Notes under the pieces: generated by a model
Database searches by the model: none
Seen by the model: the letters and a program-made list of their open reading frames with translations, nothing else
What the model was told of the DNA's origin: nothing
Made by a program: the position numbers and the translations under genes
In this document: one piece after another, positions 1 through 26,657 of the stretch
Layout of the letters: each line of letters opens with the position of its first letter
Position numbering within the stretch: the stretch's first letter is position 1
Assembly: GCA_000934665.2 (NCBI GenBank)
Contig: KZ539085.1
Span: 1-64,000, forward strand
Length of the DNA: 64,000 nt
From: Catajapyx aquilonaris
Lineage: Eukaryota
Direction of reading: 5' to 3'

Positions 1-1862
1 ACCGATGAAAATTCGAGCACATGTCATGAGGTCGCGGGAGGAAAGCTCTCCACGGCACTCGCCCAAATGCCTGCACCTGGCACACTGATTGGCGGGAGAA
101 AAAGTCGCGGACGATTCCATAACAGTCCGACAATCTTTTTGACCGTGATAGTACCAGGGGTCGAAATATTTGGATGCTAAGGTGCAATGTGCACTCCAAA
201 ATTGTTATCTGCATCCAAACTGAGCCTTGGAGGGCAAAGTATGCACTGCAGTTCCTGCTTTTTAATATGGCTAAACCCAGTAATTAAAAATTAATCATTA
301 CAAGTAATTTGCACTTCAGATGAAAGTCTTGAGTGCAAACTTAGCACTTGGACAAATATTTAAGACTCCACCCCTGCTGTACCATAAGTATTACCCAAGC
401 AACTCCCAAATTAATGCCATTAATTAATCCTGGTACAAGCCATTCCACACAATATTTCAAAATAACGAGGGGAGAGAAACAAATGGCGAACGATAACCCC
501 CAGACCCCATTTTTGACCAGTGTCCCACCCTTTTTCATGATTGAGAGAGAAGCTTGGAAATGTTTCCTTCTCCATTCTCATGGACTACTCTGCTGTGATT
601 GGCAGGAGGTGCCACTTTATGTGAGGTAAAATGGTAATGTGATGCAGGCACTATGATACCATGGAAGGGAATGTCATTCTGAATCAAAATGTCATCTGGC
701 ATTTTGTGACAAAAAACTATGCATGAGGTGCTCTAGGCCTACAAAATGTAGATATGCAGAGTTGTTAAGGCTGCACATGAGCAAAAATACGGTAGGCACA
801 TTTTTTAGAGAACTTTAGATTTTTGTGGCGGAACGCGGCGTTAACCTGGAAAAACACGAACTAGGTCACCTGCGCAAAGGTTTGGCCTTTACAATGATAC
901 CATACTCGACATGATTGCATTAAAATCGTGGACAAAAATGTGTCCGATTTTCACGCTATTTCTGCCGCCATGTTATTCAAATAGACTTTTCGAAAGCGTC
1001 GTTTTCCATTCGCCTCAACTCGTCCTAACTGTCACTTCTAGACAGAAAATGGAAAAAAGAAGAACTATTAGTGCACTTGCGCCAGATCATCTTATGCAAT
1101 TTCTATGTCGATTGAACCATTTTCGCAGCCGAACATCCCCAGAAATGTAGATATGTCGAATCTCCATTTGCTGCCCATGCATAAGCGAGTTTGTTTAGGT
1201 CATCGACAATGGCTCGCATTGTTACCGTATTTTTTTTGGTACTGCACGGCCTTAATAGCAATTTTCATAAGCAGTTATTTGTCCAAATGCATTGGATGGA
1301 TTTTCATCCCACTGCTAACATACTGCTAGCAGCCTGCTACTGCTAGTGAGGATTCTCCAGCTTTTTCATGAGGCACCATAGTTATCAGTTGTTGACAGTG
1401 GCTAGCAGTAGCTAGCAGTATGCTAGAAGTGGGATGAAGTGGGAGGGGATGTTTATTTAAGGTGCTAATCAGGTCACCATAGCAATACTTGGGTTGGTCA
1501 TTTGCCTGCCAACTGTCATTTTCCTAAATGACAGTTGGCAGGCAAATGACGGTTGGCAGGCAAATGATGGTTGGCGTTACAGGCGGACAGACAGACGACA
1601 GACAGACAGATCATAAACAGCGCTATTTATGTAGAAGATTAGAATGCATAGTAGTACCAAGAATACAAATTCTCATGCACCATGCTATTCATTTAATGTG
1701 GATTGACAAGTAATTAAAAGAAGTGATAAATTATGGTATGGGTTTCAAATTTCAAATGATGATGGATAATAATAATAATGATGATGATGATGATGATGAT
1801 CATGATGATGATGATGATGGATACCCCATGATAGGCCTCCTTGGGCCTCTTAGGGGATCATC

Positions 1863-1995
1863 CAAGGGGTTAGCAACTCCCCGGAACCGGTGTACACCCT
1901 GGCCAAGGAACCAGGTGGAACCTGCTTGGAACCGGGTGGAACCTCCCAGTTCCAGGATCTGGTGTACACTTTTTTAGGGAGTTGCTAACCCCTTG
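1863..1995. mobile_element. Short non-autonomous DNA transposon (hAT/P-type, 8-bp TSD)
   Basis: TIRs CAAGGGGTTAGCAACTCCC / GGGAGTTGCTAACCCCTTG. TSD GGATCATC at 1855-1862 and 1996-2003. Confidence 0.8.
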
Positions 1996-2018
1996 GGATC
2001 ATCATTTAATTGACCGAC

Positions 2019-2902
2019 TTTAACCCAGATATGACTGGAAAAGTTTTTGTTGAATTTTTAAGCTTTTTTTCTATTAGTTCATATTAGTTCCCAAAACACA
2101 AAAAGTGAGATAAAACATTTTTCTGGCTGCTTGTTTGCGAGAAAATTGCCGTTTCCTATAATTATGGGATGCTAGGAAAATGTAACCTAGTATGGCTATA
2201 ACAGTTGTTGATTACATTACCATGGCAACAGTGACATTCAGCAATATCCATAGTTTCATAATATCATCAATGATTGATTGTTGTCGATTGCATTACCATT
2301 GGAAACAGGCCGCGCAAAAATGGGTTGTAATTGAGTAACAATCAACAACAATCAAGGATTGTTGCAACGGTTGCCATGTTAACCAATTGGCATGTAATCT
2401 CGTTTTAATTGGATGGATTCATTAAAATACAGTTCAACAAATCATACAAAATCCACACACATACTTTACTTGTCCAAATGTGGGTGCATTTGCCTCTTAT
2501 TGTGTTCCCCCGAAGGGACGCCAGATTTCAGCACTACTCTCAGACAAGGAAAGTAAAAAATATTCCTATATTTCCACATCGACATCATCATTCATAAGTT
2601 TTCTAAGTATTACAAACAAAAAATAACTCATAATGCTAATCAACATTCGAGAATTAATTACTAATCGTCTTCGGAACGTGGAGGTGCAGCCATCATTTCC
2701 TGAGTTAAAATTCAAACACCTGTATCTTAAAAATCTGAAGCAATATTGAGCGGGTTTGAACTTGTATCGTTAGCTGGGACTCTCCTGAAGCCCCCGTCAC
2801 TACTGCCAGCTCTTTAGCAGCAGAAGAACCTGCGCAAAAAAATTTAAATGTAGCAACTGTGCAGGTGTCCCCTATAGGGGACACTCGGCTTATCTGGGTT
2901 AA
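2019..2902. mobile_element. piggyBac-type MITE (TTAA), family copy 1
   Basis: Ends TTAACCCAGAT...ATCTGGGTTAA. An inverted homologous copy spans ~18949-21190 and a partial copy starts at ~40279. Confidence 0.75.
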
Positions 2903-3657
2903 TCATTGCCTGCGCTGTGATGGATTTTGATTGTGGGAGGAAACGGGAGAACCCCTAGAAAACCCATGTGAACACAGAGAGAACCCTTCGAAACTCGATC
3001 CACATAAGTATGCTCCGTCCGACCCAGGGATCGAACTCGTGACCTTAGAGGTGGAAGGCTTTGGTGCTAACCACTACGCCACCCTGTCGCCCTCGACACA
3101 TGTTTATTTAAGGTGCTAATCAGGTCACCATAGCAATACTTGGGTTGGTGCATGCAAAAAGACATTTTTATCTGCATTTTGGTACACTTTCATATTTAAA
3201 AGCACAAATTATGAAGGAAAGAGAGCATGTTCAAAGAATATTTGGACTTCAATATTCATATCATTTCACTATCACAGTTTTCTGAGGCGATTTCAGATGA
3301 TGGAAGTTACAAAAGACTCCATGTCACAGTTACATGTTTAAATATCACAAAACACAAAATATTGTTTCGTCTAGAGGGCTATTTGGCTTATTTCAGGGGC
3401 TGAGCACCTCTACCGTAGAATGTACAAAACAGGCATTTTCTCCTGGTTATGGCTAGTAGGGCCTAACTGGCTCTATCCCTGTACCTAGGATCTATCACAT
3501 GGTAGGTGAGAGATTTGGCCATTTGGATATCAAGAATAGAAACACAACACCGGATGGGATGAGAGGACGAAGGTTCCAAGATTATTCCCAGTATATTAAC
3601 CAAGGTAGAAATTAATATCCTTCTATCTTGGACATCTCACCGTCCTAATTGCTTATT

Positions 3658-3987
3658 ATAATAATAATAATATAATCGTGGGTAATGCTTTCACCCCATC
3701 GCATGAACCTTTATTTATTTTGGTCAAGTTTCTCAACTCAAGGTGCAAGGAAACAAGGAAATTGGGTAAGGATAGGGATTTTCGGGGAGGGGACACGGGT
3801 GCAAGTGCAATGTCGTTAAACGGGTCATGTGCAGTCCCCCAGGAGGTTAGGTTCCCAGACACCTCCTTGGTCCAGGTCAGAGACCCTCCTGACGCAGGTG
3901 AAAGGAAAGTTCCCCAGGCGGGGATCGAACCTGGGGCCTTTCACTCAGCAAGCCGTGACGTTACCATCACGGCCACCACACCTCCCC
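3658..3987 (-). mobile_element. tRNA-derived SINE with (ATT)n tail
   Basis: A/B boxes GGTGGCCGTGATGG...GGTTCGATCCC on the minus strand. 14-bp TSD CCTAATTGCTTATT at 3644-3657 and 3988-4001. Confidence 0.85.
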
Positions 3988-4074
3988 CCTAATTGCTTAT
4001 TGGACTCATGGACTGTGTGTGCGGTGGTTTTCTCTTGCAGGTGTCTCAATTTGTTATTCCTCCTGGCACTTCTG

Positions 4075-4937
4075 ACAAGGGAAAGTCACCCATTGTAGAT
4101 GAAGTTGCGGAATGAAACTTGGCACAATAATAGAGGTAGGTAAGTTATTGACCAAAATGCAAACCGTTTCTGCCCAAAGCTACAAGGTCAAAAGTTATGA
4201 CATCTTGATGTCAGCCCGGACAGCTTACCATAGGAGCCAAGTTTCAGATATCGCACTCAAAAAGGCATACATTTTATTACATCATTGGAAAGGGATAATT
4301 ACTCTGATTACGAGCTATCAGCTACAAGAACTGCTAGATCGCAGCTATTTTTTAGAAAATCGCTTCTGAAGTTTTTCGCAAAAAAATAATAACGAAATTA
4401 TTTTTTATCAAATCCAGCTTATAGCCTACTCTTGGAAAATTTAGAAAATCAGGTTCTCTAATTTGTTGTAAGCCGGAAGCATAAGCCACTTGCAGATTAA
4501 ATGAAACGTTGTACATTAGCACCTGCGACTGTGTGACAATGTGATCAAATCAAAACATGTCCATACAATGAGCACATCTTACATAAAAAAAAATACCTAC
4601 CAAATAGGTAGTATACCAAATAGTAGTCCAAATGATACATGTGTGCAATGCAGGAACTTGTCGTTTATTCGATGCGCTCATTGTACAAATGTGTTTTGTT
4701 TTGAACATATAATTTAAAACATGCATAAGTGCTAATTTCCTATGCTTCTTTTTATCTGCCAGTGCTTTACCCTTCTCGCTAAGGTAAGCTGTCCAGGCTG
4801 ACATGAGAGGTCATAACTTTTGACCTTGTAACGTTGGGCCAAAACGGTTTGCATTTTGGTTAATCACTTACCTCCCTCTATTATTGTGCCAAGTTTCATT
4901 CAGCAACTCCATCTACAATGGGTGACCTTTCCTTGTG
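4075..4937. mobile_element. Non-autonomous DNA transposon with long TIRs
   Basis: ACAAGGGAAAGTCACCCATTGTAGATG... is mirrored by ...CATCTACAATGGGTGACCTTTCCTTGT. A related copy lies at ~63285-64000. Confidence 0.75.
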
Positions 4938-5187
4938 AGTCGTTAGCTGCCAGCTCTTCTCTGCTGATCTGTTCTGCCCTGCTATGTCTTCATTCCTCTG
5001 GCAGACGTTTTGGAATCTGCTGCTTCTCAGCAGGCAGACTTCTGCTTTCCCTTGCTGGTTTCTTGCTGTCTCTGAACTACCTCTCCCTGAACTTACTCTC
5101 TCTGACTAACATGCTGACTCTGAGCCTGCGATGTTTTTATAAGCCTATGAGCTGGTAGTTAGATGTTGGTGCGTTGGCAATCGCCCT

Positions 5188-6076
5188 TTAACCCTGTAGC
5201 GGGCATTGTTGTCTGAGGGCAACAATTAATTTGCGCAGGCGCCATAAGCTTCAACATTGGTCCTGGAAACCACAGTGTGGCTTGATGTCACCGTTAGTTT
5301 GTTAGCTTCCGCTGGATGACATGCAATGTCGACAATGTTACGATCGGGATATGGTATGAAGCGGAGAGTAGCCAAGGTCGTTGAAAATGGCGCGAAATTT
5401 GAATTTGCTGAAGCAGCAATTGTTTCTGGCGCTGATTAGATATAGGTGCAGATATTAAATATCCAATTGCATGTGTAACACTGCAAGAGTAGCTCTCTCG
5501 TCGCCATTTGAGGCCATTCTAATTTTGCCAGCACAATTTCATCACAATTTTTTGGCGGCGCAGGCACAATATTGCTTGAGGTTTGAGTCCTAAGTTATTG
5601 TACTATTTTTATTCGAAAACGGAAATATGTACAGATATGACCATTACTACGTTTTAAAGGCCCGGCGATTACAATTTGGACGGGAATATATATGGCCCCG
5701 AGGTCTCAAGGGGAGCCGGTAAACGAAAGGGAATCATGACCCCCCACCCCGAGCTGCATGAGACGGTGGAAGGGTGGGGGTTATGATCGCCTTTAGTTTT
5801 CTGGTCCCCTTTGCGATATGGATGCCATCTATTTATCTGATGAAATTGCAATCACCGGACCTTCAAAACTTAGCAAAGGTCATCTCTGTATGTGTTACCA
5901 TTTTTGAATAAAAAAATACTCGCCATGACTTTTGACTCACCTGGTGTAACTTCAAAGTCATTGGGTCAGAGATGACCAAAACATAATTAAAACCATCCTT
6001 ACGTCGCATATGATGAGAAAAAGGCGTTAGAATTTTTTTCTTCCCACAATCCTAAATGTGTGCAGTACAGGGTTAA
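5188..6076. mobile_element. piggyBac-type MITE with an internal foldback
   Basis: Ends TTAACCCTGTA...TACAGGGTTAA. Internal inverted repeat ~5575-5940. Confidence 0.7.
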
Positions 6077-6931
6077 TGATTGAGCAATTGTGGTGCAATT
6101 GCACAGGACATGTGGTTAGGGGGTTTCCTGAGTGTGAAGCAAACTGGACCAATAGATGATGCATTTTGGCCACATCAAGACGTAGTCAGCATCCCGTTGA
6201 ACCAGATTACGTCAGATCAGATGTCTGGGCTCACCCTCCAATGACGGAAGCGAGTGACTGGCCCTCAGGTGTGACAAGGCCTTGCGCCACAGCGGTTTCC
6301 CCTGTGTGTAGCAAAGTCCGGTGCTAACCTGGCCAATTTGTTATTCAATGAAATTTTTGGATCTGTTTTGGCCCCATTCACAGCAATATCATTTCTGGGT
6401 GTGTTCAGTAGTAATTTCAGCAACTGGGCAGGGAATGGCTAATGAGAGAGAAGTTGCATTGACACACTTGCCCCATGTACTGTAAATCACAGCCCGGACT
6501 GCTTTACAGTTGTGGCAATATACACACTTCTCTCTGTCTCTCTCTCTCTGTCTCCCGCTCCCACTTTCCACACACCCCCCCCNCCCACCCAATGTTCCCA
6601 GGAAGTGGCCAGTAGATAACTGGCCTCTCATCTGCCTAGTGGATAAGTTTATGAAGTCCAAGAGGGTATCTTGAGATGTGGTTGGGGAACTGTTTTCAGG
6701 AGTAAGAGCAGGAGCAGGGCCAACTGGAGAAAGTGAGGAGGGTGAGATTGGGCAGGGGGAAGTCAAAAGCTACTCCTCTTTGGGACAGATTGGCATACTT
6801 GCCTAAGCATGGCAATATTTCTGTATGAAAGGGTAGTCAGGGATAAAATGAGAATTTGCAAACAAACCATTCCATATAATACACAATTGCCCATGTAACT
6901 TCTGTCAGCTAATAATAATCCTTGGTTCCAG

Positions 6932-7316
6932 ATCGAGGAGTTGCAGTGCAAGTCAGAGTGTTAGCCGCAGTAACAGTGTTAGCAACGTGAGCACTAGCAG
7001 TACCAGCAGTGAGCCTAGGAGGAAGCGGAGACGGAAGTATAGGGGTGGCAGTGGAAGGGTGGAAAGTGATGGGAAGCATCGGCACCACAGCCATCGCCGC
7101 AGTGGCCACAAGCAGTCATCCAGGCGCCACAGTGGAAGCCGCAGGCATGACCCACCACGCTCCTCTCGCTCCCATTCCCATTCCTCTCATCATCACCACA
7201 CTAGCAGGCATCGCCACCGACATGGAGAGAATTCTAAAGCCTCACCAGTGCGTCACCACAGGCACAAGAGCCGACGCAAGAGGCACAGGTCATCTTCAAG
7301 CCACGACGACACATAA
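6932..7316 (+). CDS. Last coding exon of an Arg/Ser/His-rich protein (upstream exons not identified, probably left of the window)
   Basis: Acceptor TTCCAG at 6926-6931. The frame is open from the acceptor (phase 2): SRSCSASQSVSRSN...RRKRRRK...RHRHRH...SSSHDDT then TAA 7314-7316. AATAAA at 7450. Confidence 0.7.
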
Positions 7317-7578
7317 GGTTTGATCTGCCCATACCTTTATTGCCTCACATATGAAAGATCTTTAGCACCATCCTAATATATTCTTTGGCACTGTAGGTAC
7401 GAGTGGTTTTCAGCAAGGTCAAAAAAGGCACATTAAATTTCCTCATTGTAATAAATGAAAAGGCTGTTTCCTCCCATAAAAGGTCTCTGGCACTACCTCC
7501 CTTACATGTGTAATTCTAGTATATGTGTCTCCGAAATGGCTGTAATGAGGTACTTACTCAAATGTCTCTATTTAGAGG

Positions 7579-7905
7579 ATGGAAGCTGCTCCGGACGGAA
7601 CCTCCAACACTCCTCCCCCTCCCCCTCCCCTACCCCCTGCCAGTGTATCAAAAAGGAGGGGGACCAAGAGGCGGAGTGTGTCAGGACCACCCTCAATTCC
7701 GTCCGCTACTGCCAAAGGCAGGAGATCCGGTGGAGAGGGATGTAAAGAGGAGCTGAAAACACAGGGTGGTAAGGAGGAAGGGGAGGTGGAGGGAGGAGAG
7801 GACCTGCCAAAGGAGGAGGTAGAAGAACACTCCACAATGGTCCATGCTGGTCCACTGGTTCTTCCTGGTTCTGTCCTGGATGAAGTCCTCACGCACAAGA
7901 AAGCG
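7579..7905 (+). CDS. RFXAP: RFXAP-like protein, coding exon 1
   Basis: ATG in AGGATGG context. Pro-rich, basic (KRRGTKRR) and acidic segments, ending SVLDEVLTHKKA. Donor GCG|GTAACA, phase 0. Confidence 0.75.
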
Positions 7906-9431
7906 GTAACAAATATTATGTTTCCAGAAAAATAATGCCATTTGTAAACATTAGTTGCCTGGAAATTATGCATTAGGCATTAGGGGTTTCAGGTTCCATC
8001 CCCCCTATACAGAACAGTGGCCTAATACTCTGATGATTGTATGGAATGATTATGATTGGGCTCTGTTCTATTATTGCATGGATTTTCTTGGGATGATATT
8101 ATTTATTGTGTCAGAAGTCCATCATTAATGGTAGTCAAGAATAGAGCTATAAATGGAGGGCTCAGGAGAAAAACGTGTTAATCTCCAGTGGGAAATGCAA
8201 AAGTTCTCGGCCTGAATTTTTCCCCCGGAAACAAATGAAGCACAGGAGGTGTCCTTCTCTGGGTAGGTGTGGAGTACCTTCAGGAGTATTACTACTAAAT
8301 TCACGGTGCTGCCAAATGTGGAAGGCGCGATGGTTTATGGCAGGGGTCCCTTTACCTCTTCTACCTCAATAAACCCTCTTCTACCCCTCCCGACAGCCAT
8401 CCCTCCCTGGCCTGCCTTAAGGCAATTGCCACTCTTGGCAATTCAGGAGGAGTGTGCCAAGCCGGGAAATACCGTTAAGCTCTACTCCAATGCTATTTCT
8501 TCATAAGCGTTCCCTAATACTACAAAAAAGTCTAACATATTTCCAAACGTGATTTTTCAGTGGGCAGGGCCTATCCGGTATTCCACCGTGAATTCAGTAG
8601 TAGTGAATATTTTCCTGGCTGTAGAGAGCACCAGTCGCTAACAGTCAGCCTGTGAGCCCACTGCCGCATGCCAGTTAACATGTCTTACTCCCGAGACGTT
8701 CAATTCGTGCCAAAGCTACCTACCGACAGAGCTGGAAGTCTCGCAGGACATTCTGGACAACAGTGTGACAGAGAGACGAAATCTTGGTTCCTTACATACA
8801 ACGACAGCTACTACAAACCCATGAATTTTGGTCGAAATCGGAAAATATTTGTCGGAAAAGTGGTCTGAGTTGACGTGGAATGCCCCATTAGTATAAGTCA
8901 CTAAAGCACAGCAGTATGCCTGAACAGAGTGATGAGGAGTCTGCATGTCTGATGAATTAGGTGATGAGTTTGTAACACTCTGTATGCCTATAATTGAGAA
9001 AAAAATTGTCTGTGCTCATAACATACAGAGAAAAATTGTTTATTTGGACATGTCGGGTTCTCATTCAGTGCTAAAACAAGACTTGTCCACATTATACTCT
9101 ACTGTAGAATGTGTAATATGCATTGTACAAACTTCATATTCTGGTGCATGTTGACTTTGATATCATCCTATTCAACACAAAATTATCATTAGAAACATTT
9201 TTGAAACTTTCCAGGAATTCAGTTTTTCTTTGTTTTCTCGAAAGGAACAGCTCAGCTCACACAAAAAGGGGGGGAGTGAGTGGGGCCTGTTACAAACACT
9301 CAACAGCCACCCCAGAAAACTTCTCCTTCCAGTCATGTAATAATCTTAACCTTTGTTCAGCCACAGCCTCCCTGGATACCTGTGAGGTCGAGTTAAATGA
9401 AAGTGGTCCAATTCTGCATGTGCACCTTATG

Positions 9432-10225
9432 TAGGGTAAAGTGGGGCAAGTGCATAAATGGGGCAAGTGCGGCATTGCTTCTAGTGTATGACACAAGGTG
9501 GCAGGTGCTATTAAAAATCACGTAAATGTTTACGATGACCTTTGCCCACTCTGCTAAAAGTAGCGCGATCTTATCTCGTTCGTCACATTGACAAAAAATT
9601 GCTGCCAAGCTCAAGGTGGCGTGTTAACTTTTCCGGCGAGTATGCAAGTATCTTTTGCAGAATTTCTGAAGAACTTGATATTTCATGCTGCATAACTGCT
9701 CCGGCACTGTATGTAAGCGGTTAAGGTGCACTATCACGCTGTTGTTATTTCATTTTGGTGGCATAATCAGGCTGGTTTTTAAAATGGGTGATGCACTTGC
9801 CCCTAACTAGACATGGTCAGGGGCAAGTGGGTACCCAATTAATACAGGTATATGGATCAAAATGCAATATTGGAGGAATAAAGCCAGGGGTCACCAAAAG
9901 AGGCTATAAGACATCTTTTTGTGGTCACCAATGGATATTCTGCAATTGGCAACAGGCTAATTTCAAACACTGGTGTGAAAACACTTCCACATAATTCATT
10001 TAAATCAGATAATGTCAGTACTGTTAGGCAACCTGTTGCGAAGCAGGGAATGAAAGTTTGTCGTGTAAGAACTAGTTGGTGTATTTTTATTTGGAAAAAA
10101 CAGACTGACAGAGGAAGTTTGTGTTTTTGTGGCACTAGTCCTATATGCAACCTGAACAATGTTTATTACTGCGAGAGAATTCCAAAATCACACTTACCCC
10201 ATATTGCGGGGCAAGTGCAGCACTA
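9432..10225. mobile_element. Decayed pogo/Tc1-type DNA transposon fragment
   Basis: Repeated sub-terminal motif GGGGCAAGTG and its inverse CACTT(G/A)CCCC. No intact ORF. Confidence 0.45.
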
Positions 10226-10540
10226 AGCACCACTTATTTTTCGGAGCACCCATGCAGATCAATGATTTGCAATAGGTCACTTTGAAAGTCAATAAGGTAA
10301 GGTAATATTTTCAGGGGTTGAAAGTTCTGATTCATAGTAGTAGTGAAACTCAATGTTTGCCTATTCAGATCCCAAACTGAGGGAAGTACTTTCTTTTAGG
10401 GAGAGTTTCTGATAGTTTTGAAGGGAGGAAGAAATCAAAGAAAAAATTTTGCCACTCGATACGAGCCAGCTGTCTCCCCTGCAATATATATCAGCCCCCT
10501 ACAATATATATCAGCCCCCTACAATATGTTGATCTTGTAA

Positions 10541-11542
10541 TACAGGGTCATCAAAAAGAATGTCCCAATTTTAAAACCCTATAACTCGAAAACTTGTACA
10601 CATATCTTAATGATTTAAGTTTTGAAATGCTAACAAAGGTCTGAAGTTTTTGTCTTACCATAGTATGTTTCAATATGAGCTCCATTTGTCACTTGGAAAA
10701 TGCCAATACCGTAATCAGGGCCTAACCCGAAGACATGTCTGGAGTCACCATTGTGATCCTATCCCATAGGTGCTGGATGTGCCGGATCTTTTCACCATAC
10801 ATGTGTCTGCACAAAAAAAAGTCCATCGGGGTAAGATCTGCCTTCTGGGTGGGTTAAGCATTGGGGAAACTTCTCATTCAAGACTTTGCTCACTGGGAGG
10901 CTGAACAAATGAAACTTTCCTACAGCAGGTTTATTTCATAGATGAGGCTACTTTTTATTTGAATCATTGAGAACAACGTGTGTGGTGTAAAGACCAGTCA
11001 TCTTCCCGCATCTACAGGTTAGGATTGCAACGGTAACTTCAGATATGATTGAGCGGATTTGGCTCGAGACCAAATATCATCTTTTTAAATCTGCTGCGCA
11101 ACGAATGAAGCTCATATCGAAACAAACTAAGGTGAGAGTAAAGTTTTAGACATTTCTTAGCATTTCAAACCTTAAATTATTTAGATATGTCTGTGTACAA
11201 GTTTTCAAGTTATAAGGTTTTTAAAATCTATTTATTTATTTATTTATACCCCATCATTGGGAGAAACGGCGCTCCATTAGGGGGGTGGAGTACCACCATT
11301 GGATGGGACCAAGGATAGGGAAGGAAGGAAGCGGCTGTAGCCTATTATTTAGGAAGCAACCCCGGAATGATCCTGGGGGGACCATGGAAAACCACAGAAA
11401 ACCATGGTCAGGGTTGCTGGCCCCGGGATTCGAACCCAGGACATCCCAATTAGCAGTCGGGCTCCTTAACCACCACACCAACTTGCTTCAGTTGAGTTAT
11501 AGGGTTTTTTAAATTGGGGTGTTCTTTTTTGATGACCCTGTA
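10541..11542 (-). mobile_element. Defective Tc1/mariner-superfamily element
   Basis: TA-flanked TIRs CAGGGTCATCAAAAAGAA / TTCTTTTTTGATGACCCTG. Minus-strand remnant DLTPMDFF at ~10815-10840 (SPDLTPxDFFLWG motif). A SINE is inserted near the right TIR. Confidence 0.8.
11229..11490 (-). mobile_element. tRNA-Ser(GCT)-like-headed SINE with (TAAA)n tail
   Basis: Minus strand: TGGTGTGGTGGTTAAGG...GACTGCTAATTGG...GGTTCGAATCCC. The body is shared with copies at 20110, 26432 and 47390. Confidence 0.85.
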
Positions 11543-11646
11543 TACTGGCACATTGTGGAATGCGCAGTAATGCGGGAGTGGTGGTAGGAGGAAGAGGAAT
11601 GATGATGATTATGATTATGATTATGACGATCTTTATCATTTTTCAG

Positions 11647-11727
11647 GCCCTGCTGCGTAGTCCAGAAGTAGTTGCTTTTCTGCAGAAGAGGAGGAGGAAA
11701 GCAGCTTCTTTGCACATGTCTGACTGA
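11647..11727 (+). CDS. RFXAP: RFXAP-like protein, last coding exon
   Basis: Acceptor TTTTTCAG. Phase 0 reads ALLRSPEVVAFLQKRRRKAASLHMSD*. The joined motif VLDEVLTHKKAALLRSPEVVAFLQK matches the RFXAP C-terminal motif (human LLEQVLNQKRLSLLRSPEVVQFLQK, from memory). Total 135 aa. Confidence 0.8.
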   Translation, partial: ALLRSPEVVAFLQKRRRKAASLHMSD

Positions 11728-12523
11728 CTTTATTGGCTCTCTCATCAACACTGACAACTCAAGTTTTCCACCAGTTTTAATGAAATCAACGTGCCAAATT
11801 GTGATTTGACCTACTGTGTACACCAGTCCCGTTTATCTATCTCTCTAACTCCCCTTGCGTTCTTCGTTTTGGCACTTATGTTTTTTTATAGACATGAATA
11901 AGTACCATTATGTACAGTATGTGAAATCCTTCTATAGTGAATTTTTTTGGATGTGTATAAGTGAACCTGTTCTCTATGTTATTTGGAAAATGATCATTTA
12001 CATGCATAATATTATGTTAATTATATGTATGATAGGCAAGAGTTTTATTAATTTACTGGACTTCTGCAGTATTATTGTGACTTGTGGAATTTCCTGTTCA
12101 TATTATTTGATGCATAATAGTTTATAAATGTTTGTACAATACTAGTGACTTCTTGGTTATTTTTTGGCAGTGGTAGTTGTTTGAGTGGGAAGGAGCAAGC
12201 TTGGTCGTCACCGAAAGCAGCATGTTGCGTTTTTGCTGCCCCGACTTCTCGTGCAGCTGGAAACAGAACTCATGGTTATCAATAGGTGCAGACACACCTG
12301 GCAACAAAATCGCATGAAAAGTGAGCTGTGGGGAGAGGACTCGGGTTGCAGCAGGGGAAGCATACTGTCAGCTTCTGGATGTCTTCTGGTGTACTGAGCA
12401 TGATACATGCTCCCAGTTGCACCAATGTGAACCTCGTGAGCGTCAGCGACGAAAACGCCTAGTATGAACCTAGCCTTACTGTGTCACTATAATTTTGATA
12501 ATATTTTAAGTTGAATATGCTAG

Positions 12524-13564
12524 TATGAGGGGCAGTAGGAAATTAATGAGCTTTTCCATGAAGGCATTTTCCCTTAGGCATAAACATTGGTCACCATGGA
12601 GGTCATTCATGCCCAGGTGATCACAGGATATTGATACTAGAAAGTGATCCCTGCCCTGGAAGGGCTACTTCTGCTGTGACAGGAAAACATCTGTGCTGGG
12701 GAGACCATATTGGATGATGAGGCTGTTGAAAGTGCGATATGTAGCGGAAGTCCTGGGCATCAGTCTGGCTGTGATGGACGTCATCTTTCATCAACACCTT
12801 CGCCTCAGCAAAGTCTCCACCTGTTTGGTACCGCTCCGCTTCACAATCGAAGGGTAGAGAACTTGAGTTGAGATGCGACTGGCCAGCTTGAGATTTTTTT
12901 TTCCATAACAAGGGTGACTTTCTGGTACTGTTAGTGACATATGACAAAACCTGGGTTCTCCACCTCTGTCCAGCAACAAAAATCACTCCAAGCTGTGGAG
13001 ATAACCTAGTAGCTCTCCACCAAAGTTCAAAGTGTGGCAGTCCACTTCCAAGGTCATTGTGTGCACCTTCTGGGATGCAGAAGGTGTGCATATTGCTGGA
13101 CTTTCAACAAAAGTGGTGCACAATCAAAGGAGAGCACTAGCCCACATGCTCCACATGTTGTGGGAGACTTGAAGAAGAGATCCAGAAAATTACCACAAGG
13201 TGTGCCGCTTCTGCAAGACAACGCTGCTACTCACACTGCAAAGTGTTTCATTCTGACGTCTGCCTCATCTGCCCTACTCACTAGATCTGGCCCTTCCAGA
13301 CTTTTTCTTATTCCTCAATATGAATGAACAACTTCTTGGAAGGGTCCATAGACCTGACTCAAAAGTGGGAAGGAATAATATGTTGGGAGAGGGGGTTTCC
13401 AGAAACATTTTTTTTTTTTGGACTGACTAGAAAAATCAGAGACATGCTGGTCAGGGTACAGTACCAACATGAAAGAGTACTATGTTAAAAAATAAAATAT
13501 TTGTGTGCCTACTACCTGTTGTCATTCATGGAAATGCTCAGAATTACTTTCCGAAAGCCCCTTA
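12524..13564 (+). mobile_element. Defective mariner element
   Basis: TA-flanked degenerate TIRs. Frameshifted transposase remnants VTYDKTWV, LLQDNAATH and YSLDLAP/DFFL. Confidence 0.85.
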
Positions 13565-13655
13565 TCACTGAGTTAATTTCTTCTTACAATTTGAAGTTCT
13601 CAATGAAAAAACCGCAAGTAAGACTTGCTACAGTCCTCATCATGTTGCATGATAG

Positions 13656-14980
13656 TACCTTACCCAAATCCCGTAGTCTACGCACCCCAAAATAGAAGAG
13701 GGGTGGGGTGTAGCACACAAAATGTGATTAAAAATCTCAATTAAGGTTATCTTGACTTTGGAATTCATAATTATTAATAGTAACAATGGAGCTAGGATGG
13801 CACCAAAGTTAAAGTTAATTTGACAGTTAACAACTGAAACAAACATGATTAGCCTACACTTTGGACCGTGAATTTCTGTGGGGTCTGGTAATACTTGCTG
13901 TCACTATGTTAATTTGTTATGTAGCAGGACATTAATTTTAATGATGAACCTTAGGAGCCACACAAACCCAAAGACTCCATTGAAATTAATTACAAAAAAT
14001 TTGTCACTGAATTTAAAGTGTTTATATCTCGTGTACGTTTTCAGAAATTGCTACACTTTTCTGAACTACATTTAACATTGTTATTTATTAATAAATTAAA
14101 ATTTTATAATATTGTGTATTTAGACCTCAGTCCAATGTGCTACAATAAAAAATTTCAATTCAATTAATGTGAAATCGCTTTAAATAAAATGTGCAGATAA
14201 TTTCACTTCTGCAAGGCATAAAAACGTTTTAAAATTCTGTGACAATTTTTTGTTATTAATTTCAATGCAGTCTTGGGGTTTGCGTGGCCCCTCAGGTTCA
14301 TCATTGAAATTAATGTCCTGCTGTGTAACAAATTAACTTATTAGTGACAGCAAGTATTACCATACCCCACAGAAATTCACTGTCTGAAGTGTAATCATAT
14401 TTGTTTCAGTTGTTAACTGTCAAATTAACTTTAACTTTGGTGCCATCCTAGCTCGATTATTATGATTAACCCTTTGGCCCCCAGCTGTACGGCCATCGCC
14501 TAGATTTTCGCTTCTGTTAAACTTACATGTACTTCGGAAGATAAAAATAAGATATTATTTTTACCAATAATAACAGCTATACCAAGGCTATACTTACACG
14601 TTCATGCTCTACCCTATGTATATGTTTGGAACCAGTTTCCTCGTCTAGAAATCCCTAAATTAATTTCCAAAAGGATCGCGGCAGAGTATAGCTACACTTC
14701 CATTGCCTACATTTTGGTTTGCACGTACTCTGAAGATAATGATAATATGTTTTACAAATAATAACAGCTATACTTACACTTTCAGGTAAACCAGAACGTA
14801 TTTCTTGGAAACTATTTTCCTTGCCTAGAAGTCCCGAAATTAATTTCCAAAAAGATAGCTGTGAATTCCATCGCCTAGATTTTCCCTTACACATACTCTG
14901 ACGAATCACATTTTGTTTACTACCCCACCCCTCCACTTTTTTGGGGCGCAGCACATAGACTACAGGATTTGGGTAGGGTA
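13656..14980. mobile_element. Nested non-autonomous DNA elements (outer TIR pair plus inner foldback ~13774-14465)
   Basis: TACCCAAATCCCGTAGTCTA / TAGACTACAGGATTTGGGTA. Inner arms GAGCTAGGATGGCACCAAAGTTAAAG / CTTTAACTTTGGTGCCATCCTAGCTC. Confidence 0.7.
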
Positions 14981-15699
14981 TAAAGGAACTTCTGGGGCAC
15001 TGACGAGATGCTGGCGAAGGGCAGGGGCATGATGTGCTTGGTGTAAGAAGCTGATGTCAACAGGTGAGCAATATGTCTTACTTGCAGTTATTTCGTTGTT
15101 GGTGGGAACCCCTTCTCATTAAGGACAAGCCATGATGTATTTGAGATTTCTCACATTGATGCTGATTGCCTGAACATGCACTCCATAATGTAATGTAATT
15201 ATGTAAAAAAAAGAAATTTCATAAAACAGTATACTGAGAAGTTGTGAGTCATATTTAACAGTAATGGGGTGACTGGAACATGCACACGGTGTTCCTCGTC
15301 TGCCCAAGTTGATCCAGAAGATAGGAAGAGTTGATGGATTATTATCATTATTTACCTCTGGCAATATAAACAAAGTATAGCCTACTAGGGACAAGATAAC
15401 TCATTCGCTTGTGACCTTGGCAACCATAATTAGCCTCGCCCTGCTGAGTTTTTTGTATGAAATTTAGAACGATTGGTGGGGTAATATTTCCCCCCTGCTT
15501 GGTTACCAGCAAGTTACCAGCAATTACGTTAGTGCAAGTGTAAACAAACTCATCTCATTCCTGAGGTTTTAGAACATAACGCCCATCTACTTTGAAATCG
15601 AATCCTGATTCGTCGACCGTTAGGGGGCGGGGCTTAATTATGTTTGCCAAGGTCACAATAAGCCACCTCCCAAAACGTATGAGTTATCTTGTCCCTCGT

Positions 15700-16123
15700 A
15701 TAGGTGCGTGGCAATCAAAATGGTAAATGAGGACCCTTGTGCTAAGTGTGCACTGGAGTTCGAATGCAGCCCAGAAGTGACTATTCCATTATCTCCTCCA
15801 TGCCCCCTCGTCTTCTGGATCATCAATATATGATGAGCTCATGCAGAGTTTAGGTCGTCTCTGGCTTCGTCTCGGATGGAATCTCCAATAGACATATATC
15901 CACCCAGGGTAGTTCACAAAATGTATACCCATAACAGCTATAGTCCGCGCACTGCACTTTGCACATCCCCTCCTGTCATCCTGCCCGTGGGCCCGTGCGC
16001 TTCAATTAATAGGCACCAACTACTGTACAATAATAAAAATAATAAATAAAGGTCCGTGTGATATACCCCCCAGTTGGGGGTGAAAGCACTACCCCAGGAT
16101 TATGATTATTAGTATTATTATTA
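15700..16123 (+). mobile_element. Decayed tRNA-derived SINE (same family as 21272-21651)
   Basis: Shared body TGCACATCCCCTCCTGTCATCCTGCC.GTGGGCCCG and tail AAGCACTACCCCAGGATT(ATT)n. Confidence 0.7.
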
Positions 16124-17163
16124 ATCAGTTTAGTTTACATGTGACAAACATTTGCGACCCGATTATTATTATTGGCCTCGCGGGGAATCCTTACCCGCTC
16201 GCAAAGGCTTCAGTGGAATACAGTGATTCCAGTGACGATGATGTAGCCTACTGTATTAATATAAGGTAGCCTATACACCTCGCTATACACAGTTACACAC
16301 GTACACTACGGTATACTGTAGGATTTAAAAATTCTTCGAGTTACGTAAAATTCGACTTGCGCATAATGTTGTGGCACAAACTTACGCAAGTCGGGGACTG
16401 GCCTTATATTATTCTTTAATTTGGCGAAATATGCGAATTGTGTAAAGGCCAGCTGAAGGCCAGCCCTCATTTCTCGAATACAGTAGGGTGGCCAGCGGGC
16501 GGGAAACTGTGGAGTTCACAACATCCGCCGCTGCGCTGGTGGCACTGCTTGCCAGTGCTCATTTTGGTTTGGTACAGTAACAGCAAGCCTTGGTAACAGT
16601 CAGGTAACAGTACTGTACACCATACACCATAGACAGGACCATTGAGCCCATATAGTATGCGGGAGTAGGCAAAACTGGGCAGAGAGAGGTCAAACGGGAA
16701 GTCAGTTTGGGCCCAGGTTTGGGCCACATTTGGACTTACCTACAATATATTTCCCTCCACTATTCAGAGAATGTGATTGTTACGACTCTGCGAAAGCAAG
16801 TATTGTTCTATAGCGTAGCAGTTATTCAGATGCGACGCGATTTGTCTTCCAGATCGTAGTGTGCGCGCGCAGGTACCTTGGTGCTGTGGTCGCTGCGAAG
16901 AAAGGCAAAAGGGAGAGAAAAAAAAAGTGAGAGAGAGAACAGAACAGAACGGAGGGAGGTTGAGTGCTAAGTGAAAAAACGCACACACGCAGGGGGGGCG
17001 GGGGGTTGGAACATGGAGGACCCCACGGCTGTAGGCTGTACTAGGACTGCGTTCCATCTGTAAACCCAGTGAGAGTTACCAGTGTCGAGTGTTTGAGAAG
17101 CGTCAAGCGGGTGTTGCAGTGGTTGGGCTGCACCGCTTCAGTGAATGTTCTGGAGTGAGTGAC

Positions 17164-17508
17164 ATGGACCACCATCATCACCCAATTCACCACCCCCCGC
17201 CTCAGCAACAGGGGTCCCCACCGTCTGGTCCGTCGCCTCAGCCCCTGTGTCGGTATTATATGACACATGGGTCCTGTTTCTTTGGGGAAGACTGCCAGTA
17301 TCTTCACTGTGCATCTGGGGGCATGCAACATCACAATCATCATAGCCAGTCACCATCACCTGCACCCATCATGAACCATGTGGAAAACCATCTGGGCAAC
17401 AGGGGGGCAGCCAGTAGGGGGAGTATGAGCAGCCTTGATCACTTTTATGCACCCATGTCGCAGACGCAGCAAGTTCCACAGGAATCAAAGTTGGCAACCT
17501 ATCTTGCT
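17164..17508 (+). CDS. PAN3: PAN3 (PAN2-PAN3 deadenylase subunit) exon 1, CCCH zinc finger
   Basis: ATG 17164. CRYYMTHGSCFFGEDCQYLH is C-x8-C-x5-C-x3-H. Ends ESKLATYLA. Donor GCT|GTGAGT, phase 0. Confidence 0.85.
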
Positions 17509-18117
17509 GTGAGTATGCACGGTGTATTTTACCAGTTCGGCTCTTAGTTCAGGTTGAGAAACGTTGATCCAAAATGCCAAAAACCAAAGCCTCCAAAATG
17601 TGTAAGTGATTTTGAGTGCTAACGTGGTGCGCCACACAATGTAGATCTGGTGTTTGGTCTTGAATTAATCTTCTCATTGTAAGTGGTGGTGATCATGTTT
17701 GTTAAGGTATGGAACAGGTACAGAATGGATACAGAATGGGTATGTAAAGGGTGTCGAATGGGTACGGAACAGATACGGAATGGATATGGAACAGGTATGA
17801 TATGCAACCTGTTACCATGGATGTCCTCAGGTTTTGCTGTTACCATGGCAATTTTGTAGAGATATGTTATTGCCATGGTTACGTCAGCACAGTACCATGG
17901 CAACAAAGACATTCAACAATATCAACAATGTTTGGTTGTTGTTGATTACATTACCATGGAAACAGGCTGTGCATTGAATGTGTTCCCCTGCTAATTTTGA
18001 AATGTAAATGAGTAATGTTTAGGCTTAGGTCCCATCCCAAAGTTGTCACATTTTATAAGTGCAAATATGATATTTCAAAACTCGAGACACTTCCGACCTC
18101 GAGCATTTCAGATACAT

Positions 18118-18809
18118 CAGTGGTTCTCAACCTTTTCCCAGATTGTACCATTTGGCCATGACTAACAGTCTCAGGTACCCCCACGATAACATGTTTAAAA
18201 ATGATAGGTTTTAACATTTTTGACTACCTGGTGAATATTTTTAGTTGGGCAGTTTTGATAAGTTATATTTAAAGAATGCCAAGTTTTTGCCTAAACAATA
18301 TCTCCCATTGAAAATCGATATGATCAGTGGAAAATATCAAATGAAAATAACTATTTTATTGTCAAAAGAATGCAGATTTGACATTTTTATTGAAGACTGC
18401 TTGCCACGCATGCGCAGGGGAAGGCTGCCGGTCGGCGCTGCCCAGATTCAGCAGTGCTTGAATTCTGGCAGCCGTGGCGCGCGCGTGGCGGCAGCTTGTT
18501 GCCCTCCCGTTCCCCCGTTTGCGCCGGCCTAACTTTCACGCTACTCCCAGCCACACCAACATTGCCAGGGCCAGCATCAGAGGGAAGGCTAAAATGCGCC
18601 CAAAAAGAGGCCTTAACCACCCACGCAAACTCCCCTATCTCATTCTGCGGCCACATTCTAAAGGCGATCAAAAAAAAATCCTCAGTCACCTCAAAATTTC
18701 CCACATCATTTTATTTCTCCGTTGTTTTCCCTTCAGAGCTGCTCGCTTACCCCCTGAAAGTCGCGCGCATACCCCTCGGGGTACGCGTACCACAGGTTGA
18801 GAACCACCG
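18118..18809. mobile_element. hAT (Charlie/Buster-type) MITE
   Basis: TIRs CAGTGGTTCTCAACC / GGTTGAGAACCACCG. 8-bp TSD AGATACAT at 18110-18117 and 18810-18817. Confidence 0.9.
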
Positions 18810-18948
18810 AGATACATGATTCTCACACTGTAGTTGGGACTGGCAGTAAGTAAGTTACTTGAGATTCCCGAGAAATGCAGGAAATCTGCATGATGTCTTG
18901 GGCATGGGTATTGCCAACCCCTAGGTTGTGACCCAAAGTTGAGTCGCC

Positions 18949-21651: not shown

Positions 21652-22424
21652 ATGGTGGGGATTATACTATATACAAGTTCCAAGTTCGTGGGTCACATCT
21701 TGATATCTGATATTGCCCGATAGCAGTTATTTTTTGTAGTAGTAATAGAATAGGGCACATGGTTAGGGGCACAACAAGCTACAAAAATATAACTGCTATT
21801 GGGCAATATCAGTTATCAAGAAGTGACCCACGAACTGGAACACCCTATATATCTAAAATCTAGGCAAGCATTGTACCTGTTTGAACGAGGCTCAAATTTA
21901 ACTGGACCTATCTTAACACCTCCAAGTACTCCAAGAGCATGTAGATATTGCCCAAGTGGCACTGCTACAGTGCTGGACAGGAATGGTGTAGTAATGATGG
22001 TGCCACTAGTAGTCTAATCTCTGATGTGCATTCCACATAAAATGAATAAATATCGTTTAACAGTAATTCGCAGTTGAGAGATGTCGATTGTCTATTGTTG
22101 CATCACTGTAAATATGTACCATTTATCGACACTGAATAATGGCTGCCTTGACATTACAGCCTGTAAATAATTTAGACCTGTAAATAATTTAGTCCTGAAA
22201 ATTTTTGCATGTTTTTAAAAGCAGAAAATATACTATGCTTCAAAATTCAATTCACATTTGTATCAGTTGGTTATGTCATGGACTCTCCTACAGATAGTTG
22301 GTATTCCTGAGCCTTTCAAACTGTAGTTAGCAAAAGAACCACATGCCCATCATCCCCCCACAACCCCCTGCCCATCCCATCTCTCTCATTCCTTTCTTCC
22401 TTTCCTCTCCCTCAGGTTCATCCT

Positions 22425-22936
22425 CAGGGTCCAATCCCTCAAGTTCCTGTCCAAAGGAATCTGACCCCTCAAGTTCCTGTCCAAAGGAATCTGATCCCTC
22501 AAGTACCTGTCCAAAGGAATCTGATCCCTCAAGTTCCTGTCCAAAGGAATCTGATCCCTCATGTTCCTGTCCGGCGGAATCTGATCCCTCAAGTTCCTGT
22601 CCAGCGGAATCTGATCCCTCAAGTTCCTGTCCAAAGGAATCTGATCCCTCAAGTACCTGTCCAAAGGAATCTGATCCCTCATGTGCCTGTCCAGCGGAAT
22701 CTGATCCCTCATGTTCCTGTCCAGCAGGGTGTGATCCCTCAAGTTCCTGGGCTAATATCCAGCAGAGTCCGATCCCTCAGGCTCATATCCAGGAGGGTCC
22801 GATCCCTCATGTTCCGGGGCTCATACCAGCAGGGTCCAATCCCTCAAGTTCCTGTCCGGCAGGATCTGATCCCTCAGGTTCATATCCATCAGGGTCCAAT
22901 CCCGCACCTTCCTGTCAATCAGAGTCCGATCCCTCA
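22425..22936 (+). repeat. 30-bp minisatellite (unit CCCTCAAGTTCCTGTCCAAAGGAATCTGAT)
   Basis: About 10 near-perfect units at 22436-22740, followed by more diverged units. Confidence 0.95.
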
Positions 22937-23158
22937 GTCTGGCGATACACATTGCTGGACTCAACAAACCTACCTACATGGATGGGAGGTAAGTTATGAA
23001 ATGCGTGGTATATCCGCCAACTATTGGGGCGTTTGACTCAGTACATCAGATCCAAGTAGCCTTTTTCAGAGGAAATTTGCAAAAAAAATTAGTATTGGTA
23101 ACCAATCTAGCTTTACCCATGTACAGGAACTTCAAAAAATAACAGACATGGTCTACTT

Positions 23159-26431: not shown

Positions 26432-26657
26432 CCGAAGCAGGTTGGCATGGTGGATAAGGCGTCCGACTGCTAATCGGGAGGTCCTGGGTTCGCATCCCGG
26501 GGCCAGCAACCCTGACTGTGGTTTTCTGTGGTTTTCCACGGTCTTTCTAGGATAATTCCGGGGTCGCTTCCGTATAATAGGCCACAGCCACTTCCTTCCC
26601 TATCCTTGGAGGTTGAAAGGCAATGCTGGGCCAACCTTCCTAATATCAATTATAAAA
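26432..26657 (+). mobile_element. tRNA-Ser(GCT)-like-headed SINE
   Basis: Nearly identical to 47390-47616. TSD TCCCATGATGAG at 26411-26422 and 26658-26669. Confidence 0.9.

What the first reader, a model, noticed from the sequence alone, without database searches (positions are those of the whole stretch)
6932..11727. Candidate dicistronic locus: RS-rich ORF stop spliced 4 nt upstream of the RFXAP-like start
Seen: the RS/His-rich exon stops at TAA 7314-7316. A donor-like TAAG|GTTTGA follows 1 nt later, and an acceptor TTTAG (7575) sits 3 nt before the RFXAP-like ATG (7579). Splicing gives ...TAA-G-AGG-ATG. There is almost no room for a separate promoter, and an AATAAA at 7450 inside this intron could give a monocistronic isoform. 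The RFXAP frame is also open back into the RS exon (ATGs at ~7069, 7147, 7222) but closed by TGA at 6988-6990. Inference: a dicistronic mRNA using re-initiation or an overlapping start, switched by intronic polyadenylation.
Basis: partly seen in the sequence, partly recalled or inferred. Interest (0 to 1): 0.75.

Follow-up and report, generated by a model that had tools for sequence, protein, structure and literature searches.

The report
RFXAP-like gene behind SR-type exon
A small gene with an RFXAP-type motif starts 262 bases after the last coding exon of an arginine/serine-rich gene in an arthropod genome, and one RNA-like contig begins exactly at the proposed splice acceptor, but nothing yet shows that the two genes share a messenger RNA.

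Summary
The RS/His-rich frame 6933-7316 has no Met, so it must be a downstream exon. No earlier exon of its gene is recognisable in 1-6931.

The downstream gene has two coding exons, 7579-7905 and 11647-11727 (135 aa). It resembles RFXAP only in a C-terminal helix motif.

The proposed donor and acceptor are ordinary by a crude score, each at about the 81st percentile of all GT or AG in the window.

One public run (X1, behaves like a transcript assembly) gives a 513-nt contig. Its first letter is 7576, the base after the predicted acceptor AG, and it leaves the genome at the predicted donor 7905|7906. It carries no letters of the RS exon and no spliced leader. So 7317->7576 cannot be the only entry into this exon.

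My best reading (0.45) is that 7575|7576 is a real 3' splice site fed by a leader exon from further upstream.

This is a known kind of arrangement in arthropods and of modest interest.

The parts
6932..7316 (+). Last coding exon of an unidentified RS/His-rich (SR-related) gene. The frame runs from 6933, has no Met, and stops at TAA 7314-7316.
   Evidence: Translation and the ORF list. Acceptor ttccag|A read (82.7th percentile). No Pfam or PDB match.
7318..7323 (+). It is weak.
   Evidence: score 2.79, 81.2th percentile of 3687 GT. Better donors lie nearby at 7397 (96.2), 7248 (91.7) and 6987 (96.2).
7248..7253 (+). Internal donor-like site CCA|GTGCGT inside the RS exon. It would join the RS frame in phase to 7576. 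The last exon base is A.
   Evidence: Hypothetical; no RNA evidence.
7432..7455 (+). Poly(A) signals ATTAAA 7432 and AATAAA 7450, followed by a T-rich stretch. This is the probable 3' end of the RS-gene mRNA, about 120 nt before the acceptor.
   Evidence: sequence.
7318..7575 (+). 258-nt spacer or candidate intron. It holds 7 ATGs, six of which open 64-96-codon out-of-frame ORFs running over the RFXAP start if retained.
7551..7575 (+). 3' splice site region. It has a TACTTAC branch-point-like heptamer (A at 7556, 19 nt before the AG), then a pyrimidine-rich run and TTTAG.
   Evidence: Sequence. Acceptor score at the 81.5th percentile. The contig starts at the next base.
7576..7905 (+). RFXAP-like exon 1. 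ATG at 7579 in a strong context (A at -3, G at +4), then 109 codons. Donor GCG|GTAACA.
   Evidence: X1 contig record 3 (513 nt, depth 37) lies on 7576-7904 with 0 mismatches and then leaves the genome.
7906..11646 (+). Intron of the RFXAP-like gene. It contains a transposon-like element with inverted ends at 10540-11543.
   Evidence: Exon 2 acceptor at the 99.1th percentile.
11647..11727 (+). RFXAP-like exon 2 (26 codons plus TGA) carrying the LLRSPEVV-FLQK motif.
   Evidence: Pfam PF15289 positions 92-113 of 122, E 8.3e-4, 20 bits. The only PDB hit is RFXAP chain 2kw3_C, 12 of 16 identical, E 0.022.

Best explanation
There are two separate coding units on the + strand.

The first is the terminal coding exon of an SR-related gene (6932-7316). 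Its earlier exons lie beyond the window start. Its mRNA probably ends after AATAAA 7450.

The second is a 135-codon, two-exon RFXAP-like gene (7579-7905 and 11647-11727).

I think 7575|7576 is a genuine 3' splice site. On this reading the RFXAP-like coding exon is reached by cis-splicing of one or more leader exons transcribed from further upstream, within or ahead of the SR gene. That removes the ATG-laden 258-nt spacer and puts the strong-context ATG 3 nt into the exon, where ordinary scanning can use it. The pair would then be overlapping or shared-promoter genes, with a mainly monocistronic RFXAP-like mRNA.

Shown:
- the exon boundary or RNA start at 7576
- the donor at 7905|7906
- the two ORFs
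- the motif match to RFXAP

Inferred:
- that 7576 is an acceptor rather than a start
- the existence and place of the leader exon
- the poly(A) site
For: -: record 3 of X1 (513 nt, depth 37) maps with its letter 1 at 7576 and 0 mismatches to 7904. 184 further letters lie elsewhere, so it is spliced at the predicted donor.
- X1 behaves as a transcript assembly. Record 7 (3064 nt) likewise follows PAN3 exon 1 from 16918 to 17508 and leaves at CTG|GTGAGT.
- The base before 7576 is the G of an AG. That AG is preceded by a pyrimidine-rich run and a TACTTAC heptamer 19 nt upstream.
- A start that close to the ATG would leave a leader of only a few bases.
- Any unspliced leader reaching beyond 7562 would carry up to 7 upstream ATGs. 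One is GAA-ATG-G at 7536, opening a 69-codon overlapping ORF.
[quoted passage not shown] A contig end at a splice junction therefore fits a graph branch, meaning more than one sequence upstream of 7576.
Against: - No leader exon was seen, and no joint into 7576 is listed.
- The acceptor score is only average.
- A graph branch at exactly 7576 needs two upstream partners that differ in their last base. About four in five exons end in G (recalled), as does the genome at 7575.
- Only one run, of unrecorded library type, was available.
Confidence: 0.45

Rival explanations
1. Ordinary tandem genes. The RFXAP-like gene has its own promoter in the spacer just after the SR gene's poly(A) site. Transcription starts within about a dozen bases of 7576, giving a very short leader.
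For: - The contig starts at 7576 with nothing upstream, as a dead end at a true 5' end would.
- TTAGA at 7572-7576 loosely resembles an initiator, and a TATATG lies at 7520.
- A poly(A) signal for the upstream gene lies at 7450.
Against: - A 3-14 nt leader is rare and poorly translated (established knowledge).
- The start coincides to the base with an AG behind a pyrimidine tract and a branch-like heptamer.
- No clear core-promoter motif sits at the right spacing. TATATG is 40-55 nt upstream, and no DPE match lies at +28 (read).
- A start further upstream would add strong upstream ATGs.
Confidence: 0.3
2. The SR-gene transcript is spliced 7317->7576, giving a dicistronic mRNA with a 4-nt gap between stop and start. 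RFXAP-like is translated by re-initiation or a similar route, and polyadenylation at about 7470 gives the monocistronic SR mRNA.
For: - All motifs are present.
- The acceptor side fits the contig start.
- 2.5% of D. melanogaster gene models are polycistronic, and some switch by upstream poly(A) sites or alternative splices (passages of PMC4528330).
- Earlier unchecked notes of this scan report several RNA-backed polycistronic loci in this same genome.
Against: - The donor AAG|GTTTGA is weak (T at +3 and +4; 81st percentile).
- If this were the only junction, the contig would run on into the RS exon or carry 30 of its letters. If the only other route were unspliced RNA, both would end in AG and the contig would start at 7574. 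It starts at 7576 (assembly method).
- Re-initiation after a long ORF is inefficient without special signals (established knowledge).
- The three ATGs of the RS exon lie in the RFXAP frame and would intercept leaky scanning.
Confidence: 0.12
3. One gene with two 3' ends. An internal donor in the RS exon (7247|7248, or 6986|6987) is spliced in phase to 7576. That gives an SR-domain protein ending in the RFXAP-like domain. Reading through the donor gives the short form ending at TAA 7314 with poly(A) near 7470, a composite terminal exon.
For:
- Their last exon bases (A, C) differ from the genomic G at 7575. A graph branch at exactly 7576 requires such a difference.
- X1 holds 0.61 of 104 sampled words of 6932-7905, close to the 0.62 expected if it held 6932-7247 plus 7576-7905. 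This is my arithmetic and a weak hint.
Against: - No junction was seen.
- In-phase GT sites are simply valine codons in an RS frame (5 of them).
- ATG 7579 has a strong start context and opens a self-sufficient ORF.
- Other coverage patterns give the same word share.
Confidence: 0.08
4. Operon-type unit resolved by spliced-leader trans-splicing at 7576, as in nematodes or tunicates.
For: AATAAA lies 120 nt upstream of a 3' splice site that sits right before the ATG. This geometry is typical of nematode operons (recalled).
Against: - The contig begins at its letter 1 on 7576 with no non-genomic leader letters. A leader shorter than 31 nt would be carried whole, and a longer one in part.
- Earlier notes place the genome among arthropods, probably hexapods. 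Spliced-leader trans-splicing is not known there (recalled).
Confidence: 0.02

Closest known systems
Drosophila melanogaster dicistronic loci as catalogued by FlyBase (Crosby et al. 2015, PMC4528330; passages read)
   Same: Two unrelated same-strand coding regions in an arthropod lie very close together. Monocistronic forms could arise from an upstream poly(A) site or alternative splicing, both described there.
   Different: - No processed RNA spanning both ORFs is shown here.
- The upstream ORF belongs to a long SR-type protein, not a small peptide.
- The short gap would exist only after removal of a 258-nt intron.
FlyBase gene pairs that share a promoter and 5' non-coding exons (130 genes; PMC4528330)
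   Same: The downstream gene's first coding exon is entered through a 3' splice site just before its ATG. There is little room for a promoter of its own.
   Different: The shared or upstream leader exon has not been found. It may lie outside the window.
Human RFXAP, C-terminal RFX5-binding segment (PDB 2KW3 chain C; Pfam PF15289)
   Same: Exon 2 carries the LLRSPEVV-FLQK helix motif, 12 of 16 residues identical to chain residues 28-43. RFXAP is the top hit in both Pfam and PDB.
   Different: - The protein is only 135 aa.
- The rest of the 122-position Pfam domain is not detected.
- The score is below Pfam's cut-off (20 vs 26.1 bits).
- The host is an arthropod without MHC class II (recalled).
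Nematode or tunicate operons with spliced-leader trans-splicing
   Same: A poly(A) signal lies about 120 nt upstream of the downstream gene's 3' splice site.
   Different: No leader letters are on the contig, and the taxon is not known to trans-splice.

Membership tests
Dicistronic mRNA locus (FlyBase sense) | A processed transcript that contains both complete coding regions | tested here: inconclusive
   the one contig on the RFXAP-like exon starts at 7576 and carries no RS-exon letters.
Dicistronic mRNA locus (FlyBase sense) | No independent transcription start for the downstream cistron, or one used only in alternative transcripts | not testable with these tools
   Needs CAGE or 5' RACE. 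Contigs cannot show a start (tool text).
Dicistronic mRNA locus (FlyBase sense) | Gene pair and spacing conserved in related species | tested here: inconclusive
   No relatives were retrievable. Searches had 0 scored hits, one search gave 2 probable low-complexity hits, searches found nothing, and no genome is held.
RFXAP (Pfam PF15289, RFXA_RFXANK_bdg) | Domain match at or above Pfam's gathering score | tested here: not met
   Exon 2 alone scores 20 bits, E 8.3e-4, against a cut-off of 26.1. Exon 1 and its tail gave 0 families. The joined protein was not submitted, so the whole-protein score is unknown.
RFXAP (Pfam PF15289, RFXA_RFXANK_bdg) | C-terminal helix that binds RFX5 (segment solved in 2KW3 chain C) | tested here: met
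   the only PDB hit is RFXAP, with 12 of 16 identical over chain residues 28-43, E 0.022.
Spliced-leader trans-spliced operon | Non-genomic common leader at the 5' end of the downstream mRNA | tested here: not met
   the record maps from its first letter at 7576, with no loose 5' letters.
Shared-promoter / shared 5' non-coding exon gene pair | A 5' exon used by both genes and spliced to each gene's own coding exons | not testable with these tools
   No upstream exon is recognisable in 1-6931. It needs reads or the assembly graph.

The most novel reading that the evidence does not exclude
The SR-gene mRNA is spliced one base after its stop codon to three bases before the RFXAP-like start, leaving a 4-nt gap. 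Ribosomes that finish a long SR-protein ORF re-initiate on the RFXAP-like ORF. Use of the poly(A) site inside that intron decides whether the second protein can be made at all. That would be a splice- and polyadenylation-gated termination-reinitiation unit in an animal.
Probability: 0.1. Interest if true: 0.55.

Novelty: new member of a known kind. Interest (0 to 1): 0.3.

Why it matters
If the two genes share a transcription unit, expression of an RFXAP-like factor would be tied to that of a splicing-type SR protein. The factor sits in an animal without MHC class II, so its role there is unknown.

If the 4-nt stop-start junction were real, it would be a natural test case for re-initiation after a long ORF.

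As things stand, the locus mainly adds one more closely packed arthropod gene pair to a class already catalogued in Drosophila. It also provides a gene model for a short arthropod protein carrying the RFX5-binding helix motif of RFXAP.

Tried and rejected
- RNA holders: no RNA holder was listed. The single run X1 has no recorded library type. I treat it as transcript-like only because two of its contigs leave the genome at donor sites.
- Coverage: the bin 6671-7337 showed depth 0, and the bin 7338-8004 is accounted for by record 3 alone. This is no finding, because a filter drops records. X1 holds 0.61 of 104 sampled words of 6932-7905, while record 3 can explain at most about 0.32. Further X1 contigs therefore overlap 6932-7575 unseen.
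- Exon joint: the expected joint 7905->11647 was not listed. One joint was dropped at a repeat and may be this one, but that is not shown.
- Protein searches all came back empty. RFXAP-like exon 1 at near lengths: 116 candidates, none scored. RS exon against longer proteins: 1463 candidates, none. The 63-codon ORF ending in exon 2 against longer proteins: 15 candidates, none.
- The exhaustive HMMER search of exon 1 gave 2 hits, one a 2343-aa protein with 10 stretches. These are probably low-complexity matches, and I did not inspect them. The Atlas gave nothing.
- RS exon identity: no Pfam or PDB match. There is no further RS-rich 20-residue window in 1-6931 on either strand.
- Pfam scans upstream of the RS exon. 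Of 185 ORFs of at least 75 codons, I scanned 150. The 35 left out to fit the cap were picked by hand: mostly frames overlapping or antisense to the RS and RFXAP exons, ORFs with N runs, and minus-strand ORFs beyond about 48 kb. I also scanned 70 smaller + strand ORFs in 1-6931. Upstream of the RS exon these found only a Tc5-transposase remnant.
- No whole genome is held. Earlier findings near this place, in relatives, or by sequence: none.
- Rfam and tRNA scans found nothing in the locus.
- Literature: 'RFXAP' with 'bicistronic' gave 3 papers, none relevant by listing. 'RFXAP', 'invertebrates' and 'ortholog' gave 0. 'RFXAP', 'RFXANK', 'Drosophila' and 'evolution' gave 8, none on arthropod RFXAP by listing.
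Full report
**Observation**

The window is animal DNA with long introns and many repeats. Earlier unchecked notes of this scan call the genome an arthropod, probably a hexapod.

- RS exon: after the acceptor ttccag|A at 6931|6932, the frame from 6933 runs 127 codons of Ser/Arg/His-rich sequence to TAA 7314-7316. It has no Met, so it must be a downstream exon of a spliced gene.
- Proposed splice sites: GT follows at 7318 (AAG|GTTTGA), and TTTAG ends at 7575.
- Start codon: ATG is at 7579, with A at -3 and G at +4.
- RFXAP-like ORF: it is open for 109 codons to GCG|GTAACA at 7905|7906. It resumes after a strong acceptor at 11646|11647 for 26 codons to TGA 11725-11727.
- Poly(A) signals: ATTAAA 7432 and AATAAA 7450 lie in the spacer.
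TGA is at 6988-6990, and ATGs at 7069, 7147 and 7222 are in phase with 7579.

**Is it more than chance?**

The splice motifs are not.
- 544 of 3084 stop triplets (17.6%) have a GT starting within 3 nt. 375 of 1416 ATGs (26.5%) have an AG in the preceding 6 nt.
- On a crude weight matrix built from recalled frequencies, the donor is at the 81.2th percentile of 3687 GT. The acceptor is at the 81.5th percentile of 3805 AG.
- Stronger donor-like sites lie close by: 7397 (96.2), 6987 (96.2) and 7248 (91.7).
- For comparison, the RS exon's own acceptor scores 82.7, the RFXAP-like exon 1 donor 89.7 and the exon 2 acceptor 99.1.

The unusual part is the 262-nt distance between two same-strand coding units. 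The RFXAP-like intron is 3.7 kb, and the next gene starts 5.2 kb further on.

**What the genes are**

- Exon 2 matches Pfam PF15289 (RFXA_RFXANK_bdg) at positions 92-113 of 122, with E 8.3e-4 and 20 bits. That is below the 26.1-bit cut-off.
- Its only PDB hit is RFXAP chain 2kw3_C, 12 of 16 residues identical over LLRSPEVV-FLQK, E 0.022.
- Exon 1 and its tail match nothing.
- The protein therefore shares the RFX5-binding helix of RFXAP. It is not shown to be a full family member. I could not score the joined protein.
- The RS exon matches nothing, and no other exon of its gene is recognisable in 1-6931. Only a Tc5 transposase remnant at 4520-4714 turned up there.
- Downstream on the same strand lies PAN3. 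It has a CCCH finger in 17035-17544 and pseudokinase exons at 34407-35150, 40057-40299 and 42862-43092. The PDB hit 4bwp_A has E 1.3e-25.

**RNA evidence**

One run search and one laying were allowed.

The search returned a single run, X1: coded, library type not on record, 32 million letters of Logan contigs. It holds 0.61 of 104 sampled words of 6932-7905.

Laid on 1-20000, it behaves like a transcript assembly.
- Record 7 (3064 nt) follows PAN3 exon 1 from 16918 to 17508 without mismatch and leaves the genome at CTG|GTGAGT.
- Record 3 (513 nt, depth 37) lies on 7576-7904 with its letters 1-329 and no mismatch. Its other 184 letters lie elsewhere.
- The donor at 7905|7906 is thus used, and the RNA contig begins exactly at the base after the predicted acceptor AG.
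- No joint into 7576 and no loose 5' letters are reported.

**What the contig start means**

Logan contigs come from k=31 unitigs with single-copy words discarded. [quoted passage not shown] A contig end is then either a dead end or a branch. The following points are my inference from that method.

- If 7317->7576 were the only way into the exon, the contig would run on into the RS exon or begin with 30 of its letters. It does neither.
- If the two ways in were that junction and unspliced RNA, both end in AG and the shared contig would begin at 7574. It begins at 7576.
- A spliced leader would leave non-genomic letters at the contig's 5' end. There are none.

Two possibilities remain. One is a branch between partners whose last bases differ. 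The other is a true 5' end within a few bases of 7576.

**Weighing acceptor against start**

For an acceptor:
- The start coincides to the base with an AG.
- A pyrimidine-rich run and a TACTTAC heptamer precede it, with the heptamer's A 19 nt upstream.
- Any unspliced leader would be heavily loaded with ATGs. There are seven in 7318-7578. Six of them open 64-96-codon out-of-frame ORFs across the start, including one in a strong context at 7536.

For a start:
- A dead end is the simplest reading of a contig end.
- A poly(A) signal for the upstream gene sits 120 nt before it.
- TTAGA at 7572-7576 loosely resembles an initiator.

Against a start:
- The leader would be only 3-14 nt.
- No core-promoter motif sits at proper spacing.

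I put an acceptor fed from upstream at roughly 0.65 in total and an own start at 0.30.

**Which upstream partner?**

This is unknown. I split the acceptor case as follows.
- 0.45: a leader exon from further upstream, that is a shared or overlapping transcription unit. This is a class with 130 genes in D. melanogaster.
- 0.08: an in-phase internal donor of the RS exon, at 7247|7248 or 6986|6987. This would make an SR-RFXAP fusion with the TAA form as a composite terminal exon.

The internal donors end in A and C, which fits the differing-last-base requirement. The word share of 0.61 is also close to the 0.62 expected for 6932-7247 plus 7576-7905. Both hints are weak, and in-phase GTs in an RS frame are just valine codons.

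**Comparison with known systems**

Polycistronic mRNAs are established in insects.
- D. melanogaster has 159 dicistronic pairs, covering 2.5% of gene models.
- Stop-start distances range from -34 to 319 nt for obligate cases.
- Monocistronic alternatives arise by downstream promoters, upstream poly(A) sites or alternative splices (passages of PMC4528330).

Earlier notes of this scan, unchecked by me, report several RNA-backed polycistronic loci in this same genome. That raises the prior but is not evidence for this locus.

- a long upstream ORF
- a spacer cut to 4 nt by splicing
- an intronic poly(A) switch

**Verdict**

- The sequence observations are correct.
- The acceptor at 7575|7576 gains real though not conclusive support.
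- The dicistronic reading is untested and somewhat disfavoured as the main route.
- The locus is most likely an overlapping or closely packed gene pair of a known arthropod kind.
- The assembly-graph neighbours of the 513-nt contig, or a handful of long reads, would settle it.

Noticed in passing
window 16918-43092 (+): A PAN3 gene follows the RFXAP-like gene on the same strand. X1 contig record 7 covers its first exon 16918-17508, with ATG near 17165 and a CCCH finger. Pseudokinase exons lie at 34407-35150, 40057-40299 and 42862-43092.
   Followed up: partly
window 10540-11543: A transposon-like element with nested inverted repeats (arms 10540-10576/11507-11543, 10569-10602/11192-11225, 10600-10689/11101-11190) sits in the RFXAP-like intron. 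A tRNA-end-like insert lies at about 11225-11500. X1 depth there is very high (417 and 2686 in the two bins), so the family is abundant in RNA or DNA of that run.
   Followed up: partly
window 4520-4714 (+): A remnant of a Tc5-type transposase C-terminal domain (PF04236, E 3.2e-7) is the only Pfam hit upstream of the RS exon.
   Followed up: no
window 6140-6345 and 6598-6612: Seen by eye: a cluster of promoter-type motifs 600-800 nt upstream of the RS exon. It has three CCAAT, one TACGTCA, and ACGGAAGC and CAGGAAGTG ETS-like sites. It could be a start region for a leader exon feeding 7576 or 6932. No statistics or RNA support obtained.
   Followed up: no
window 7069, 7147, 7222: The only three ATGs in the 385-nt RS exon all lie in the one frame that continues into the RFXAP-like ORF after a 7317->7576 join. 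The chance of all three sharing one frame is about 1 in 9, so this is probably compositional.
   Followed up: partly
window 22311-23033 (+): A 241-codon open frame inside the PAN3 span gives a Pfam whole-sequence hit to Myb_CC_LHEQLE (E 1.7e-9) with no single stretch passing. It is probably a low-complexity His/Gln-rich PAN3 exon.
   Followed up: no
window 47393-47464 (+), 20343-20415 (-), 26441-26508 (+): Three Rfam tRNA matches (40.4, 33.6 and 30.9 bits). They are either tRNA genes or tRNA-derived SINE heads.
   Followed up: no
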